Assembly (NCBI GenBank): GCA_963787445.1
Contig: CAWBCT010000005.1
Location: forward strand, 288,001 to 352,000
DNA length: 64,000 bases
Reading direction: 5' to 3'
DNA from: an uncultured archaeon
GTDB taxonomy: Archaea > Micrarchaeota > Micrarchaeia > Micrarchaeales > CABMGC01
The notes beneath the pieces were generated by a model that was not told the DNA's origin, did not search any database, and worked only from the letters and a program-made list of their open reading frames with translations. The translations under genes and the position numbers were made by a program. Shown piece by piece: positions 355-4,856 of the stretch (within the stretch, counting starts at the first letter, position 1; the number at the start of each line of letters is the position of its first letter).

Positions 355-969
355 ATGAACATGACTTCAACGCTCTCATCCTTGCTGGGATTGGGTTCGG
401 TAAACACATTCATCTTGCATTATGGCTACCTAGCCATACTCGTGCTTATGGCCCTAGAGGCCGCCTCCCTGCCAATACCGAGCGAGGTGATACTTCCAGT
501 GGCGGGATATTTCATCGCACAGGGAACCCTGACTTTTCTAGGCGTGCTCGTTGTCGCACTCGTGGGCGAGATCATAGGTATGTCGATAGACTACTTCATA
601 GCCTACTACCTGAACAAGGCCGTGGTTTACAAGCACCTTGGGTTCTTCCACCTGACGGCATCAAGACTTGACGCGTTCGACAGGTGGTTCCAGAGGAACG
701 GGAGCTTTGCGGTTTTCTCACTCAGGCTTGTGCCCATAGTCAGGGGTCTTATAAGCTTCCCCGCGGGCTTCGCAAAGATGCCGAAGAAACAGTTCTACTT
801 CTACTCCATACTGGGCTCTCTGATCTGGAACATGCTTCTGATCGGGTTCGGCTACTACGCGCTCAGCCAGAGCAGCATAGGCCTGGCGGTGATCCTGATG
901 GCTGTGCTAGGGGTGTTTCTTTACATATTCTACGAGATCGTGGTCAGAAAAATAAGAAAGCGCGCCTGA
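355..969 (+). CDS. DedA family membrane protein
   Basis: LEAASLPIPSEVILP, RLVPIVRGLISFPAG, multiple TM segments. Confidence 0.93.
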   Translation: MNMTSTLSSLLGLGSVNTFILHYGYLAILVLMALEAASLPIPSEVILPVAGYFIAQGTLTFLGVLVVALVGEIIGMSIDYFIAYYLNKAVVYKHLGFFHLTASRLDAFDRWFQRNGSFAVFSLRLVPIVRGLISFPAGFAKMPKKQFYFYSILGSLIWNMLLIGFGYYALSQSSIGLAVILMAVLGVFLYIFYEIVVRKIRKRA

Positions 970-1305
970 TTACTCCTCTTCCTTCTTCGGTTTCTCTATG
1001 ATGTACTTCTCGACTATCTTGATTACCTGGTCGATGGAGCGCTTGATGTCCGCCTCGGTCTTCGAGCCTGCGCAGATCACCTTCCCGTTCTTGAACAGAA
1101 GCAGGGCGGTCTTCGGGTCGGCTATCTTGCAGATCGCGCCCGGGAACTGCTCGGGCTCGTAGTCCACGTCGGGCGAGTTCTTCGCTATGGCGTAGAGGTC
1201 CAGCTCGACGCCCAGGTCTGCGCTGGCTACGATGTTGACTATCTTAAAATCAGGGTGAAGCAGCGCCTTCATGTTCGGCTTCTTTGGCTTCGGTTTCGCT
1301 ACCAT
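970..1305 (-). CDS. Single-repeat TATA-box-binding protein (half-TBP)
   Basis: IVNIVASADL...YEPEQFPG...LLLFKNGKVICAGSKT is exactly one TBP repeat; 111 aa. Confidence 0.9.
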   Translation of the reverse strand: MVAKPKPKKPNMKALLHPDFKIVNIVASADLGVELDLYAIAKNSPDVDYEPEQFPGAICKIADPKTALLLFKNGKVICAGSKTEADIKRSIDQVIKIVEKYIIEKPKKEEE

Positions 1306-1311
1306 GGTGAT

Positions 1312-1331
1312 CCTTTATAAACCTTTATAAA
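1312..1331. repeat. Tandem 10-bp direct repeat CCTTTATAAA x2, each containing palindromic TTTATAAA
   Basis: Seen directly at 1312-1321 and 1322-1331 in the divergent half-TBP/rpl21e intergenic region. Confidence 0.7.
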
Positions 1332-1404
1332 TAGACGTGAAAGGTATATATATGTTTTTCTGTCAAACTATCTTGAGCTATTTATCTATCAGCGGAGGAG
1401 CTAC

Positions 1405-1698
1405 ATGACCCAGCGTTCACACGGATTGTTCTCAGGCAGAAGCAGGCACCTTGCCCGCCACAACATGCCTTCCAAGTTAGGCATAACCAAGAAGATCAAG
1501 CAGTTCGAGATAGGGAGCAAGGTGCAGGTGATGCCCAAGGGCAACTTCAGGAACATCCCGCACCCCAGGTACAGGAACAAGATAGCAACAGTCATAGGCA
1601 AGCGGGGAGAGGCCTACGTCGTAGAGATAAAGGTCGGCAAGTCGATAAGGCGAAGGCTGATAGTGCCGCAGATACACCTGGACTACTTCTCCGCATAG
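1405..1698 (+). CDS. rpl21e: 50S ribosomal protein eL21 (L21e)
   Basis: RSHGLFSGRSRHL, PHPRYRNKIATVIGKRGEAYVVEI, LIVPQIHL. Confidence 0.93.
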   Translation: MTQRSHGLFSGRSRHLARHNMPSKLGITKKIKQFEIGSKVQVMPKGNFRNIPHPRYRNKIATVIGKRGEAYVVEIKVGKSIRRRLIVPQIHLDYFSA

Positions 1699-1733: not shown

Positions 1734-2531
1734 TTAGCTGAAGGTGAGCGACTGGGTTGCGGAGCAGCCCTTTAGGAACATGGCATTGACGGTCAGGCTT
1801 GTCGGGGTGGAGGCGGTTATGTAGGTGGTCGCTGTGCCGTTCGCATTCGAGAGAGTATAGGAGGGGGCGATCACGCCGAGAGCGCTCGAGGAGGTGAAGT
1901 TCACCGTCGCACCGGCTATGGTGGTTCCGCCGTAGGCTATTATCGCGGTGAGCATGTCGGGGGTGCCGTGCACAGGGGTTGCCGTTGCGGCGGTGAGGCC
2001 GATGCTGCAGGTGGAGATGGCGGTGTACGGGCCTGTGCGGGTTGAGAAGGTGCCGTTAAAGCTCTCAAGGACGTTTGCGGTGCAGCTTGCAGTCCCGATC
2101 TGGGTGCAGACGGTCTGGTTGTAGACCATGAAGCCGGTGAGGGTTGTGCCTATGGTGAACGGGCTGGCACCTGTTGCGTTGCAGATTACCGAGCCGCCGC
2201 TTAGGACGAAACCCGGGCCGCAGCGGGTGCGGATGTTGCCGTAGGAGCTGACGTTGATGTATAGGGTGGGATTGACTATCGCATAGTCCTGCCCGTTTGT
2301 TATGAATACCTGGTAGATGGAGTTCGCGGTGTTGGAGGTTATGACTATGTCGCTGCACGGGACTGCGACCGAGAACGTGCATTGGGAGGGCACGGCAACA
2401 AGCAGCTCGTTGAGCAGGAAGTAGACCACCGCCATGGCGCCGACTATTATTATGATTGCCCAGCTGTAGGTGGTGAGAAATTCCACCGCGGACTGGCCGC
2501 GCAGGGCCTTGCTCTGAGCCTCGTTGTCCAT
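1734..2531 (-). CDS. Class III signal-peptide (pilin-like) surface protein with C-terminal Ig-like (Big-1) domain
   Basis: RGQSAVEFL cleavage motif plus hydrophobic helix; C-terminal GATVNFTSS...SNANGTATTYIT. Confidence 0.75.
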   Translation of the reverse strand: MDNEAQSKALRGQSAVEFLTTYSWAIIIIVGAMAVVYFLLNELLVAVPSQCTFSVAVPCSDIVITSNTANSIYQVFITNGQDYAIVNPTLYINVSSYGNIRTRCGPGFVLSGGSVICNATGASPFTIGTTLTGFMVYNQTVCTQIGTASCTANVLESFNGTFSTRTGPYTAISTCSIGLTAATATPVHGTPDMLTAIIAYGGTTIAGATVNFTSSSALGVIAPSYTLSNANGTATTYITASTPTSLTVNAMFLKGCSATQSLTFS

Positions 2532-3365: not shown

Positions 3366-4856
3366 TTATTCCGCATGCGAAGTAACCTTGTTTACGATGC
3401 AGTAGCCGTTCATAACCCCATGCAATATATTCGGGTTGGCAAAGTAGGTGACAGGCAGATATTTCCAAGCAGATTGTGAGGCACAGTTGCTGGATATGAT
3501 GGATGAGTAGGGCACTACGAAATAGAAGTCCACCAATGAGTAGGTGCTGTTTGAGAGCAGGTAGGGGATTGTGGTGTTGTAAACCAGGAAGGCCGTGCCG
3601 TTAGAGTAGAGATACTTGGCATAGACCGTGCTGGTGCTCCCCAAGAACTCAAACGTTGCGCTCGCCGTGCCGGGGCTCTGCAAAGACTCCGGAAGCGGGG
3701 AGCCGGCGTAGCCAACATAGGCCAGAATGGATGCGCTGAGCGTGTTATTCTCTATTGTCAGCGTTGTGCTGGTGCCGCTTCTGGACACGAATGTTGAAGG
3801 ATACCCTGGAAGCGTGAGCAGTGAGGTCTGCAGACCCGCCATTAGCGATGTGGATCCCGTACTGTATCCAGTATTCAGCAGGTAGGGGGAAACGTAAACC
3901 ACGTTCGTATAATTTAGGGTGAGAAGCAAATAGGCAAAAGAGAACGCGATCACAGCAGCCAGGAAGGGCGTCATGTAACTCGCTCTTGCCTGGTTTTTCC
4001 TTTGGCTGCGCTTGAGTTCAAGGCCGTATCTCTTGAGGAGCAGCACCATCAGGACTATCACTACATAGAAGACGATTATCCCTGCAAAAAGGTGCAGAAG
4101 GGACAGGGCGGAGCTTGGGCCGTAGGCTATCCAGAGCGCTGCAATAAGGCTCATCCTGGCAAGGTTGAGCACGAAGAATAGTACAATCGCGCTGAGGATC
4201 CACAGCGCTTTGCGTTTTATCTCTCCGTCAAAAAGATAGGCCAGAGGCAGAAGCAGCATCACCGTCGCCAGGAGAAGGCCCACTCCTACGCAGCTCTCAC
4301 CGATTCCTATCCTATAACCGGCTGCAAGGATGGTTATTGGCGGGGAGTAGGCGATGTGCGGGACTGCTGTGCTGAGTATGTAATAAACAAGCCGGGTGTT
4401 AGCCGATGCGAAGGCGGCGTTTAGGTTTAGGAGTGGCGTAAGAAGCAGCGGTGAGGCGAAGAGCGCATAGATTAGAAGCGGCGCGAAGCGCTTGAGGGCT
4501 TTTGCCCCGAATATCAGGCATATCAAAGAGGCCAGAAGGATCGGCATCAGCAGGAGGTCAACTCGGTAGCTGAAGAAAAGGTACGAGAGTGTCAAACGCA
4601 GGAAAAAGTACGCAAGCAGAAAGGCGGCGAAAAGCCCTATGCCTATTGCAAGGTCCTGCGCCTGGGCGTCCGCCTCCGGCGGCTTGCGCAGGTAGAACAG
4701 CGCAAAAAGAGGCAGCATCAGCAGAGGTATGACTGCGTAGGTGGATGGGTCGGTGTCGCTGATGGTGAGCGGCGTCAGGAAAAGGGAGCTCGCGAGCACC
4801 ACGGCCATGAGCACCGCAAGCAGCAGAACTCCGATAGTTGCGCGATCGTGCCTCAC
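3366..4856 (-). CDS. Exosortase/archaeosortase-family membrane protein with C-terminal extracellular domain
   Basis: IGESCVG (Cys), NLARM (Arg), LHLFAG (His) in a polytopic membrane protein. Confidence 0.75.
   Translation of the reverse strand: MRHDRATIGVLLLAVLMAVVLASSLFLTPLTISDTDPSTYAVIPLLMLPLFALFYLRKPPEADAQAQDLAIGIGLFAAFLLAYFFLRLTLSYLFFSYRVDLLLMPILLASLICLIFGAKALKRFAPLLIYALFASPLLLTPLLNLNAAFASANTRLVYYILSTAVPHIAYSPPITILAAGYRIGIGESCVGVGLLLATVMLLLPLAYLFDGEIKRKALWILSAIVLFFVLNLARMSLIAALWIAYGPSSALSLLHLFAGIIVFYVVIVLMVLLLKRYGLELKRSQRKNQARASYMTPFLAAVIAFSFAYLLLTLNYTNVVYVSPYLLNTGYSTGSTSLMAGLQTSLLTLPGYPSTFVSRSGTSTTLTIENNTLSASILAYVGYAGSPLPESLQSPGTASATFEFLGSTSTVYAKYLYSNGTAFLVYNTTIPYLLSNSTYSLVDFYFVVPYSSIISSNCASQSAWKYLPVTYFANPNILHGVMNGYCIVNKVTSHAE

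What the first reader, a model, noticed from the sequence alone, without database searches (positions are those of the whole stretch)
970..1305. Stand-alone single-repeat (half) TBP, possibly a symmetric homodimeric basal or alternative transcription factor
Seen: the 111-aa ORF holds exactly one TBP repeat. It keeps NIVAS, the acidic stirrup YEPEQFPG and both DNA-intercalating Phe (EQF, LLF). There is no room for a second repeat: the stop abuts the DedA stop and only about 100 bp separate its start from rpl21e, so it is not a frameshifted full TBP. Codon usage is host-like. Known: canonical TBPs have two fused repeats (about 180 aa) thought to derive from a homodimeric ancestor, and single TBP domains are mostly known in RNase HIII, glycosylases and divergent monopartite proteins. 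Inference: this near-canonical half could homodimerise into a fully symmetric saddle with two TFB stirrups, or pair with a second half encoded elsewhere.
Basis: partly seen in the sequence, partly recalled or inferred. Interest (0 to 1): 0.75.

Follow-up and report, generated by a model that had tools for sequence, protein, structure and literature searches.

The report
Single-lobe TBP that likely works as dimer
This Micrarchaeota genome, like most of its class, encodes the essential TATA-binding protein as a free-standing half that probably pairs with itself or a second half, a living version of the homodimeric ancestor long proposed for TBP.

Summary
Window 970-1305(-) encodes a 111-aa protein with exactly one full TBP repeat (Pfam 2.9e-28). 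It is flanked as described and is contiguous in per-run assemblies.

It is not a broken TBP. The genome holds only two TBP repeats: this one (A) and an unlinked 105-aa half (B) about 175 kb away. All 41 genomes of the order carry only single-lobe genes. In a 101-genome sample of the class Micrarchaeia, 22 have a tandem TBP, 46 have one lone lobe, and 31 have 2-3 unlinked lobes. Five high-quality genomes have a single lobe even at E<=10.

Half A sits at the same rpl21e-divergent locus as the tandem TBPs of sister families. It is under strong purifying selection (dN/dS about 0.07). It keeps both intercalating Phe and the TFB-binding EPE stirrup.

A homodimer model passes its controls (0.54 vs 0.02) through S1-S1' strand pairing. 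Micrarchaeial lobes form one clade, are neither N- nor C-type, and were re-fused at least once.

Best reading: a non-covalent, two-fold symmetric basal TBP. Binding is predicted, not shown.

The parts
970..1305 (-). Half-TBP 'A' gene: 111 aa. It has a basic N-terminal tail (about residues 1-16) followed by one complete TBP lobe (about 19-101). The stop codon is at 970-972.
   Evidence: ORF. Pfam PF00352 at 98 bits, profile 1-85/85. PDB phmmer hit at E 8.6e-42. Fold check. Invariant N24 I25 V26, Y49-G56 (YEPEQFPG), F54 and F71 across 50 halves.
1306..1404 (.). 99-bp divergent intergenic region shared with rpl21e. Two tandem palindromic TTTATAAA boxes lie at 1314-1321 and 1324-1331; the distal one is at about -26..-19 from the half-TBP ATG. 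A conserved GGTATATATAT box lies at about 1343-1353 facing rpl21e, with a GGAGGAG Shine-Dalgarno-like run at 1394-1400. All are putative promoter elements.
   Evidence: Sequence. TTTATAAA occurs only twice in the 64-kb window, both times here (12 of 100 shuffles give at least 2, so the count alone is not significant). Among 76 distinct upstream regions of A-type loci, 20 contain TTTATAAA and 30 contain TTTATA. Many of the 45 upstream regions printed carry the second box, read on the half-TBP strand as ...ATATAAATACCTTTCA; this was judged by eye and not counted. Function is inferred only.
1405..1698 (+). Ribosomal protein L21e gene, the conserved divergent neighbour that marks the ancestral TBP locus.
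   Evidence: Pfam PF01157 at E 1.2e-11. An L21e ORF is present in 96 of 105 A-type loci, on the opposite strand in 95 of 96. It is also next to sole halves of many families and next to 8 of 10 Micrarchaeial tandem TBP loci.
355..969 (+). DedA/VTT-domain membrane protein gene, convergent neighbour; its stop abuts the half-TBP stop.
   Evidence: Pfam PF09335 at E 8.2e-21. A DedA-like ORF is present in 82 of 105 A-type loci.

Best explanation
The ORF is this organism's basal TATA-binding protein in single-lobe form. One polypeptide supplies half of the TBP saddle. Two chains associate non-covalently by antiparallel pairing of their first beta-strands (residues about 20-29) around a two-fold axis, backed by helix H2. 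This rebuilds the ten-stranded saddle of a canonical TBP. Each chain brings two DNA-kinking Phe (F54, F71) and one acidic EPE stirrup (E50, E52). The dimer therefore has four Phe and two identical TFB-docking stirrups. Transcription direction would be set, as generally in archaea, by the single TFB reading a BRE on one side of the TATA box. In this genome the main species is most likely the A2 homodimer. The unlinked paralogue B (105 aa, 51% identical) would give B2 and/or A:B dimers, acting as an alternative TBP. Shown here: the sequence, the fold, the genome-wide absence of a tandem TBP, conservation, synteny and purifying selection. Predicted: the dimer interface. Inferred: DNA binding, TFB recruitment and which dimers form in the cell.
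For: (1) The genome (82% complete) has only two TBP repeats, both in ORFs of about 105-111 aa and about 175 kb apart. (2) In 41 of 41 genomes of the order the matches are single lobes in separate frames. 33 genomes have two matches and 8 have one; none has a tandem. (3) In the 101-genome class sample (>=85% complete), 22 genomes have a tandem, 46 have one lobe only, 31 have 2-3 lobes in separate short frames, and 2 have none (my tally of the tables). G117 (one contig), G013, G045, G064 and G055 still have only one lobe at E<=10. TBP is essential in archaea (established knowledge), so a lone lobe must be enough. (4) Half A occupies the rpl21e-divergent locus that also holds the sole halves and 8 of 10 tandem TBPs of other families. 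(5) Purifying selection: median NG86 dN/dS is 0.066 for A (586 pairs with 0.1<dS<1.5, out of 1333 pairs and 70 unique sequences) and 0.115 for B (5 pairs). At least 80 species carry orthologues at 72-88% identity. (6) F54, F71 and YEPEQFPG are invariant in 50 halves. The EPE.FP stirrup motif is typical of the C lobe in ordinary TBPs (59 of 85 C lobes against 10 of 85 N lobes). It is present in 79 of 80 halves and in 40 of 40 Micrarchaeial tandem lobes. Ravarani 2020 (PMC7221094, passages read) assigns these two acidic loop positions to the TFB/TFIIB contacts. (7) The homodimer prediction gives ipSAE 0.54 (three runs: 0.39, 0.55, 0.54) against a best control of 0.02. Partner pLDDT is at least 76 and the runs share at least 75% of contacts. 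The mark was reached by 20 of 30 proteins solved as pairs of one chain and by 1 of 23 solved as single chains. The tightest contacts are 25-25', 22-26' and 27-21'. (8) Natural tandem TBPs P0001 and P0002 consist of two A-like lobes that are 84-90% identical to each other. This shows that two A-type lobes do make a TBP. (9) There is one TFB gene per genome in 14 of 15 relatives searched, and TFB-BRE sets polarity in archaea (PMC7289017, passage read).
Against: There is no biochemical or expression evidence; no RNA run holding the locus was listed. The complex score may come from the model's memory of the intramolecular lobe-lobe interface of solved TBPs, and my own alignment was used, so the calibration holds only roughly. 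The own genome is 82% complete and 5.4% contaminated, so absence of a tandem TBP here rests mainly on relatives. 33 of 41 genomes of the order keep both A and B, so an obligatory A:B pair in this particular organism is not excluded. This genome's only TFB gene carries a frameshift between its cyclin repeats, so either the assembly or the gene is imperfect. The one-lobe state cannot be distinguished computationally from a monomeric, non-saddle mode of action.
Confidence: 0.78

Rival explanations
1. Split TBP: A and B are the two obligatory halves of one heterodimeric TBP, a gene fission, and neither works alone in this organism.
For: Exactly two halves are present in this genome and in 33 of 41 genomes of the order. 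Both are under purifying selection. Both keep every invariant DNA- and TFB-contact residue. B matches the C-lobe half of all 10 NCBIfam TBP models, whereas A matches the N half in 5 of 10.
Against: B groups with the A-type lobes of the same order (57 rows, SH-aLRT 92), not with C lobes. Lobe-specific HMMs score both A (N 101.6, C 93.2) and B (N 97.1, C 93.2) as undifferentiated. In the same family, genus g4 (G013 at 97% complete; G117 on one contig) and G020 and G021 have only A. 46 of 101 class genomes have a lone lobe. B is not at the conserved rpl21e locus. Positions 20 and 27 touch across the modelled interface. They co-vary as F/Y+A in 61 of 64 non-B halves and as I+V in 15 of 16 B halves. 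That fits self-complementary interfaces, though this is a weak inference.
Confidence: 0.15
2. Accessory single-lobe TBP-domain protein, like haloarchaeal TbpA or the Thermococcales monopartite proteins, with the true two-lobe TBP simply missing from an incomplete MAG.
For: The genome is 82% complete. Single TBP-domain proteins that coexist with full TBPs are known (PMC3597702, passages read).
Against: No tandem TBP is found in any of 41 genomes of the order, 25 of which are at least 90% complete, nor in one-contig genomes. The protein is near-canonical (98 bits) rather than divergent. It sits at the locus of the tandem TBP of sister families.
Confidence: 0.03
3. Artefact: a misassembled, truncated or decaying remnant of a full TBP.
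For: Coverage is low, about 5x word depth. The assembly has at least one frameshifted essential gene, TFB.
Against: Contigs from separate runs bridge the whole locus without indels. Loci of A type from many independent assemblies show the same gene length and neighbours. dN/dS is about 0.07. There is no room for a second lobe and no relic of one at E<=10.
Confidence: 0.01

Closest known systems
Canonical archaeal TBP (two fused lobes, about 180-190 aa; e.g. PDB 1pcz/1ais Pyrococcus woesei, 2z8u Methanocaldococcus jannaschii, 1mp9 Sulfolobus acidocaldarius)
   Same: Same Pfam repeat and same lobe fold (rmsd 1.0-1.8 A), with 41-43% identity per lobe. The Phe pair per lobe and the EPE stirrup are retained. 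The gene is presumed to have the same role with TFB, BRE/TATA and RNAP.
   Different: There is one lobe per polypeptide, so the saddle must form between chains. The resulting dimer would be perfectly two-fold symmetric with two TFB-type stirrups. In contrast, 85 ordinary tandem TBPs have N and C lobes only 22-62% identical (median 36%), and EPE.FP is present in 10 of 85 N lobes against 59 of 85 C lobes.
Tandem TBPs of other Micrarchaeia families (f5, f10, f13, f14, f16, f19; P0001-P0004, P0016 and others)
   Same: They share the clade, the rpl21e-divergent locus in 8 of 10 loci, and the YEPEQFPG motif in both lobes.
   Different: The lobes are fused, and they are unusually alike (45-90% identity between N and C lobe). 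In P0001 and P0002 both lobes nest inside the family-f1 A clade, implying a recent duplication-fusion of an A-like half.
Haloarchaeal TbpA, a single-domain TBP paralogue (as described in Brindefalk et al. 2013, PMC3597702; passages read)
   Same: It is a single TBP lobe close in sequence to bona fide TBPs.
   Different: TbpA coexists with several full-length TBPs and is reported there as not essential. Here no full-length TBP exists in the genome or in the order.
Monopartite TBP-domain proteins of Thermococcales and other Euryarchaea (Brindefalk et al. 2013, Table 3; passages read)
   Same: They are stand-alone proteins of about 91-96 aa with one TBP-like domain.
   Different: Those are strongly diverged from TBP, form a separate sequence cluster, and coexist with a normal TBP; their function is unknown. 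Half A is near-canonical and replaces the TBP at its own locus.
TBP-like single lobes inside other proteins (RNase HIII N-domain, DNA glycosylases)
   Same: They share the helix-grip lobe that binds double-stranded nucleic acid (PMC3597702 and PMC7221094, passages read).
   Different: They are distant in sequence, lack the stirrup and Phe pair, and are not transcription factors. OGG1 appears only at E about 0.2 in the fold search.

Membership tests
TBP (Pfam PF00352; NCBIfam TATA-box-binding protein models) | TBP repeat matched above the curated threshold | tested here: met
   98 bits against a cut-off of 22.9, over the full profile 1-85.
TBP (Pfam PF00352; NCBIfam TATA-box-binding protein models) | Two tandem repeats in one polypeptide (about 180 aa saddle) | tested here: not met
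   One stretch only in 111 aa. All 10 NCBIfam full-length TBP models score 66-91 bits, below their cut-offs of 181-347. No second repeat is adjacent in six frames.
TBP (Pfam PF00352; NCBIfam TATA-box-binding protein models) | Lobe fold S1-H1-S2-S3-S4-S5-H2 | tested here: met
   The model has E25-30, H37-43, E47-49, E57-61, E66-70, E75-81 and H84-101, with mean pLDDT 83.9. All 44 top PDB matches are TBPs.
TBP (Pfam PF00352; NCBIfam TATA-box-binding protein models) | Pair of DNA-intercalating Phe per lobe | tested here: met
   F54 (EQFPG) and F71 (LLFKNGK) are invariant in 50 halves. The assignment of these positions to the kinking Phe is recalled from yeast and human TBP structures.
TBP (Pfam PF00352; NCBIfam TATA-box-binding protein models) | Acidic stirrup (E-P-E) that contacts TFB/TFIIB | tested here: met
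   E50-P51-E52 are invariant. The motif is enriched in C lobes of ordinary TBPs. Its role is taken from PMC7221094.
TBP (Pfam PF00352; NCBIfam TATA-box-binding protein models) | Binds and bends TATA DNA and recruits TFB and RNAP | not testable with these tools
   This needs EMSA or FRET and in vitro transcription.
TBP (Pfam PF00352; NCBIfam TATA-box-binding protein models) | Saddle formed by two lobes joined through central S1/S1' strands | tested here: inconclusive
   The homodimer model pairs S1 with S1' (contacts 25-25', 22-26') with score 0.54 against a best control of 0.02. This is a prediction and may reflect memory of solved TBPs.
Monopartite TBP-domain proteins of Euryarchaea (Brindefalk 2013) | Single domain that is strongly diverged from TBP and coexists with a full TBP | tested here: not met
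   It is a single domain, but near-canonical, and no full TBP exists in the genome or order.
Split gene (two complementary halves of one ancestral ORF) | The two pieces correspond to the N and C parts of the fused homologue | tested here: not met
   A and B are paralogues of the same undifferentiated lobe. An AU test rejects N-with-N and C-with-C orthology for Micrarchaeial lobes (p 0.00016).

The most novel reading that the evidence does not exclude
The Micrarchaeia descend from an ancestor whose only TBP was a single, undifferentiated lobe working as a symmetric homodimer. The tandem TBPs seen in some of their families re-arose several times by in-situ duplication and fusion at the rpl21e locus, and can collapse back by recombination between the near-identical repeats. 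On this reading the founding event of TBP evolution (homodimer to fused pseudo-dimer) is being replayed and reversed in a living lineage. Natural intermediates of every stage are available: lone lobe, two or three paralogous lobes, freshly fused 84-90% identical lobes, and older 45-75% identical lobes. A bolder extension, that the lone lobe is a relic older than the TBP fusion in the archaeal ancestor, is not excluded but unlikely (about 5%).
Probability: 0.4. Interest if true: 0.92.

Novelty: new variant of a known kind. Interest (0 to 1): 0.85.

Why it matters
TBP is the textbook case of a pseudo-symmetric protein thought to derive from a homodimer by duplication and fusion, but no organism was known to run basal transcription on an unfused lobe.

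If these proteins dimerise as predicted, they give a natural, conserved, experimentally tractable homodimeric TBP. Several questions then become directly testable:
- How does a perfectly symmetric saddle with two TFB stirrups achieve promoter polarity?
- What does lobe asymmetry (N against C) actually buy?
- How easily does the fold switch between fused and unfused states?

The finding also matters for annotation. Full-length TBP models score these proteins below threshold, so the basal factor of a whole archaeal class can be missed or called partial. In addition, 2-3 paralogous lobes could combine into several dimers, a cheap way to diversify promoter recognition in about 1-Mb genomes.

Tried and rejected
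Literature. Six full-text searches found no paper describing single-lobe TBPs as the sole TBP of Micrarchaeota or DPANN:
- single-domain, half or monopartite TBP, DPANN;
- TATA-binding protein, Micrarchaeota, homodimer, single repeat;
- TBP, DPANN, split gene;
- Micrarchaeota, TBP, TFB, ARMAN, Mancarchaeum;
- homodimeric or ancestral TBP, TBP lobe;
- Micrarchaeota + TATA, 7 papers.

PMC8407392 (passages read) only says TBP is conserved in about 89% of DPANN genomes. Subscription journals and supplements were not searchable, so prior mention, for example in arCOG tables, cannot be excluded.

Expression. The look-up of sequencing runs listed no RNA holder. The 9 holders are DNA metagenomes from 6 studies, and only 4 runs of one study hold at least half of the words. 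This says nothing about expression.

Simple fission hypothesis (A = N lobe, B = C lobe). Rejected by the trees, the lobe HMMs and the A-only genomes.

Palindromic TATA boxes as a genome-wide signature of a symmetric TBP. Not supported. TTTATAAA occurs only twice in the window, both times upstream of this gene, and 12 of 100 shuffles reach 2.

The search for homologous proteins. The 120 proteins listed are dominated by tandem TBPs, because two stretches add up in the score. It therefore gives no census of halves; I used it only for P0001-P0120.

A:B heterodimer and B2 models. DNA and TFB could not be included.

The phylum-level search returned only genomes of the same class, so nothing is known here about other DPANN phyla.

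Genome G038 is flagged unpublished. It is counted among the 41, 101 and 41 genomes, and its lobe L029 is one row of the tree. No conclusion depends on it.

Full report
**1. The observation**

Window 970-1305(-) is an ATG-started ORF of 111 aa. Pfam finds a single TBP repeat, residues 19-101 covering profile positions 1-85 of 85, at 98 bits and E 2.9e-28. Against PDB chains it matches both lobes of archaeal TBPs about equally well: 1pcz 65.7 and 78.3 bits, 2z8u 73.5 and 72.1 bits. An AlphaFold2 model built from a 50-row alignment (mean pLDDT 83.9) has the lobe topology. It superposes on one lobe of solved TBPs at rmsd 1.0-1.8 A, and all 44 Foldseek hits with E<=0.001 are TBPs.

- NIVAS, YEPEQFPG, EQF and LLF are present.
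- The stop abuts the DedA/VTT stop at 969|970.
- 99 bp separate the start from rpl21e.

Contigs assembled from single runs bridge the locus without indels or joints: X2 covers 676-1663 and X3 covers 870-1589. Those runs may be the MAG's own samples.

**2. Not a fragment: the genome and its relatives**

The window is G000:C5:288001-352000, in an assembly of 1.05 Mb, 19 contigs, 82% complete and 5.4% contaminated. A six-frame search of the whole assembly with PF00352 at E<=10 gives exactly two matches. One is this ORF (A). The other is a 105-aa ORF (B) at C5:463677-463994 (L002:1447-1764), about 175 kb away and outside the window. A and B are 51% identical over 89 residues.

In the 41 genomes of the same order (3 families, 28 genera), every match is a single lobe in its own frame. 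33 genomes have two matches at unlinked places, for example G032 on one contig at 119 kb and 882 kb. 8 genomes have one match. None has two matches in one frame.

Record titles of 80 related loci, 72-88% identical to A, name the lineage as Candidatus Micrarchaeota/Micrarchaeia.

**3. Class-wide picture**

I tallied the table (101 genomes of the class, each at least 85% complete), resolving G068:

| State | Genomes | Notes |
|---|---|---|
| Tandem TBP in one frame of 187-223 aa | 22 | families f5, f10, f13, f14, f16, f19 |
| A single lobe as the only match | 46 | frames of 92-182 aa |
| 2-3 lobes in separate short frames | 31 | own order, plus genus g52 of f8 and a few others |
| No match | 2 | |

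For G053, G075, G088 and G101 only one of the two matches is listed. G094 additionally carries a canonical, asymmetric tandem on a 3.7-kb contig; this looks like contamination, and I used it as an outgroup seed.

Five high-quality one-lobe genomes were re-searched at E<=10 and still show one lobe: G117 (one contig), G013, G045, G064 and G055. The phylum sample contained no genome outside this class.

**4. Same locus as the real TBP**

Of 105 A-type loci, 96 hold an L21e ORF, on the opposite strand in 95 of 96, and 82 hold a DedA-like ORF. The same divergent L21e neighbour is found next to the lone lobes of many other families. It is also next to 8 of the 10 Micrarchaeial tandem TBP loci I fetched. 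B-type loci lack it. Half A is therefore the positional orthologue of the TBP gene of the class, and B is a dispersed paralogue.

**5. Selection and key residues**

Median NG86 dN/dS is 0.066 for A, based on 586 pairs with 0.1<dS<1.5 out of 1333 pairs from 70 unique sequences. For B it is 0.115 from 5 pairs. dS is high, so these values are approximate.

In 50 aligned halves, N24 I25 V26, D36 L37, Y49-I58 (YEPEQFPGAI), F71, G74, I77 C78 and G80 are invariant. All halves carry a basic N-terminal tail of about 5-30 residues.

The stirrup motif EPE.FP is present in:
- 10 of 85 N lobes and 59 of 85 C lobes of ordinary tandem TBPs;
- 20 of 20 N lobes and 20 of 20 C lobes of Micrarchaeial tandems;
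- 79 of 80 halves.

Ravarani et al. 2020 (PMC7221094, passages read) assign these two acidic loop positions to the contact with TFB/TFIIB.

**6. Origin of the lobes**

In a tree of 122 Micrarchaeial lobes (87 columns, SH-aLRT only), three sets group together with support 92:
- the f1 A set, 33 rows with support 93, which includes both lobes of the tandem proteins P0001 and P0002;
- the f3 A-like set, 8 rows with support 95;
- the B set, 16 rows with support 98.

I then added N and C lobes from outgroup tandem TBPs. These came from 85 unnamed tandem TBPs of 172-200 aa, taken from the 50%-identity representative library. Thirteen of them went into the tree (30 into the tree), and all 85 served for the identity and motif statistics. 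In the tree all 53 Micrarchaeial rows (halves, tandem N, tandem C) fall on one side of a branch, with SH-aLRT 94 and length 0.44 under LG+C20 PMSF. The larger LG+G4 tree shows the same split with weak support of 55.

An AU test rejects the classical arrangement in which Micrarchaeial N lobes group with outgroup N lobes and C with C: delta lnL 106.5, p 0.00016. This was run after seeing the tree, although the hypothesis is the standard one.

Identity between N and C lobes is 22-62% (median 36%) in the 85 outgroup proteins. It is 45-90% in 20 Micrarchaeial tandems, and 84% and 90% in P0001 and P0002.

Lobe-specific HMMs trained on half of the outgroup separate held-out N lobes (median C-minus-N of -13.5 bits; 41 of 42 negative) from held-out C lobes (+11.6 bits; 37 of 42 positive). 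Every Micrarchaeial group lies between, at -2 to -7 bits. A scores N 101.6 and C 93.2; B scores N 97.1 and C 93.2.

So these lobes are undifferentiated: overall slightly N-like, but with a C-type stirrup. A and B are not the N and C halves of a split gene. Two histories fit. Either the class ancestor had one lobe and fusion recurred, or the repeats are homogenised by recombination and one copy is often lost. At least one re-fusion, P0001/P0002 inside the A clade of half-only genomes, is the simplest reading.

**7. Mechanism**

The homodimer job (A x 2, with my 50-row alignment) gave ipSAE 0.39, 0.55 and 0.54 (median 0.54), against a best control of 0.02. Partner pLDDT was at least 76 and at least 75% of contacts were shared between runs. 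The mark was reached by 20 of 30 proteins solved as pairs of one chain and by 1 of 23 solved as single chains.

The interface comprises residues 15-31, 76-78 and 84-95. The best-defined pairs are 25-25', 22-26' and 27-21'. This is antiparallel pairing of strand S1 about a two-fold axis, backed by helix H2. From my recollection of TBP structures, this is where the two lobes of a fused TBP meet. The tool warns that such a pass may come from memory of solved structures; it shows likeness, not binding.

With two identical stirrups, polarity cannot come from TBP. [quoted passage not shown] 1999). A symmetric TBP is therefore mechanistically tolerable.

Relatives have one TFB gene in one frame of 337-428 aa. 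The exceptions are G003 with two copies and G027 with a 228-aa frame that starts at a contig edge.

Positions 20 and 27 touch across the modelled interface. They co-vary as F/Y+A in 61 of 64 non-B halves and as I+V in 15 of 16 B halves. This is a weak hint that B has its own self-complementary interface.

**8. Verdict**

This is the basal TBP of a whole archaeal class in unfused form. It most likely acts as a non-covalent symmetric dimer, with B as a paralogous alternative lobe.

I found no description of this in six literature searches. The nearest published cases are haloarchaeal TbpA and the divergent monopartite proteins of Thermococcales (PMC3597702, passages read). Both coexist with full TBPs.

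Supplements of papers were not available.

Noticed in passing
outside the window: G000:C5:463677-463994 (+) = L002:1447-1764: Second single-lobe TBP gene (B, 105 aa, Pfam TBP 85.5 bits), 51% identical to half A. It lies convergent to a GT4-type glycosyltransferase gene and not next to rpl21e. It is conserved in both families f1 and f3 of the order.
   Followed up: yes
outside the window: G000:C5:575677-576592 = L172:1138-2053: The genome's only TFB gene is broken into a 228-aa ORF (Zn ribbon + first cyclin repeat) and an overlapping 85-aa ORF in another frame (second cyclin repeat). In 14 relatives both repeats lie in one frame. This is therefore an assembly indel or a strain-level frameshift, not a conserved split.
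   Followed up: partly
P0001, P0002 (195 aa, from short metagenome contigs): Tandem TBPs whose two lobes are 84% and 90% identical to each other and 68-74% identical to half A. Both lobes nest in the family-f1 A clade, so they look like recent duplication-fusions of a half gene.
   Followed up: partly
L070:2-412 (contig edge of a Micrarchaeota MAG record): A partial lobe followed in frame by a complete A-like lobe. The last 33 residues of both are identical. This is either a very recent tandem duplication or an assembler artefact at a contig end.
   Followed up: no
G063:C1 (one 1.18-Mb contig): 448260-448502, 893905-894144, 1045410-1045655; also G069, G072, G111, G118 (genus g52, family f8): An independent expansion to two or three unlinked single-lobe TBP genes in another family. 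One copy is next to rpl21e and the extra copies form their own clade (SH-aLRT 97).
   Followed up: partly
G094:C77:2653-3174 = L168:445-1011(-): A 3.7-kb contig in a Micrarchaeial bin carries an ordinary asymmetric tandem TBP (N and C lobes 40% identical, not next to rpl21e). It is probably contamination from another archaeon and was used as the seed for the outgroup search.
   Followed up: partly
G068:C12:15512-15856: In a family that otherwise has tandem TBPs (f16), this genome shows only two weak partial matches (profile 1-39 and 41-85) in one 146-aa frame. That looks like a single, divergent or interrupted lobe.
   Followed up: no
window 1314-1331 and about 1343-1353: A compact divergent promoter region between the half-TBP gene and rpl21e. 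It holds two tandem perfect-palindrome TTTATAAA boxes, the only two in the 64-kb window. A second TATA-like box faces rpl21e; many of the 45 relatives' upstream regions printed carry it (by eye, not counted).
   Followed up: partly
L062, L064, L067, L081, L090, L097 (record titles): Contigs carrying A-type half-TBP genes are filed under 'Candidatus Marsarchaeota', 'Candidatus Saccharimonadales bacterium' or 'bacterium'. These are likely mis-binned or mislabelled Micrarchaeial contigs.
   Followed up: no
window 1734-2531 (-) and 3366-4856 (-): A 265-aa Thr/Ser-rich protein has a weak Ig-like (Big_1) match below the Pfam threshold (27.4 bits against 34.9). A 496-aa multi-pass membrane protein lies next to the locus. 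Neither was examined further.
   Followed up: no
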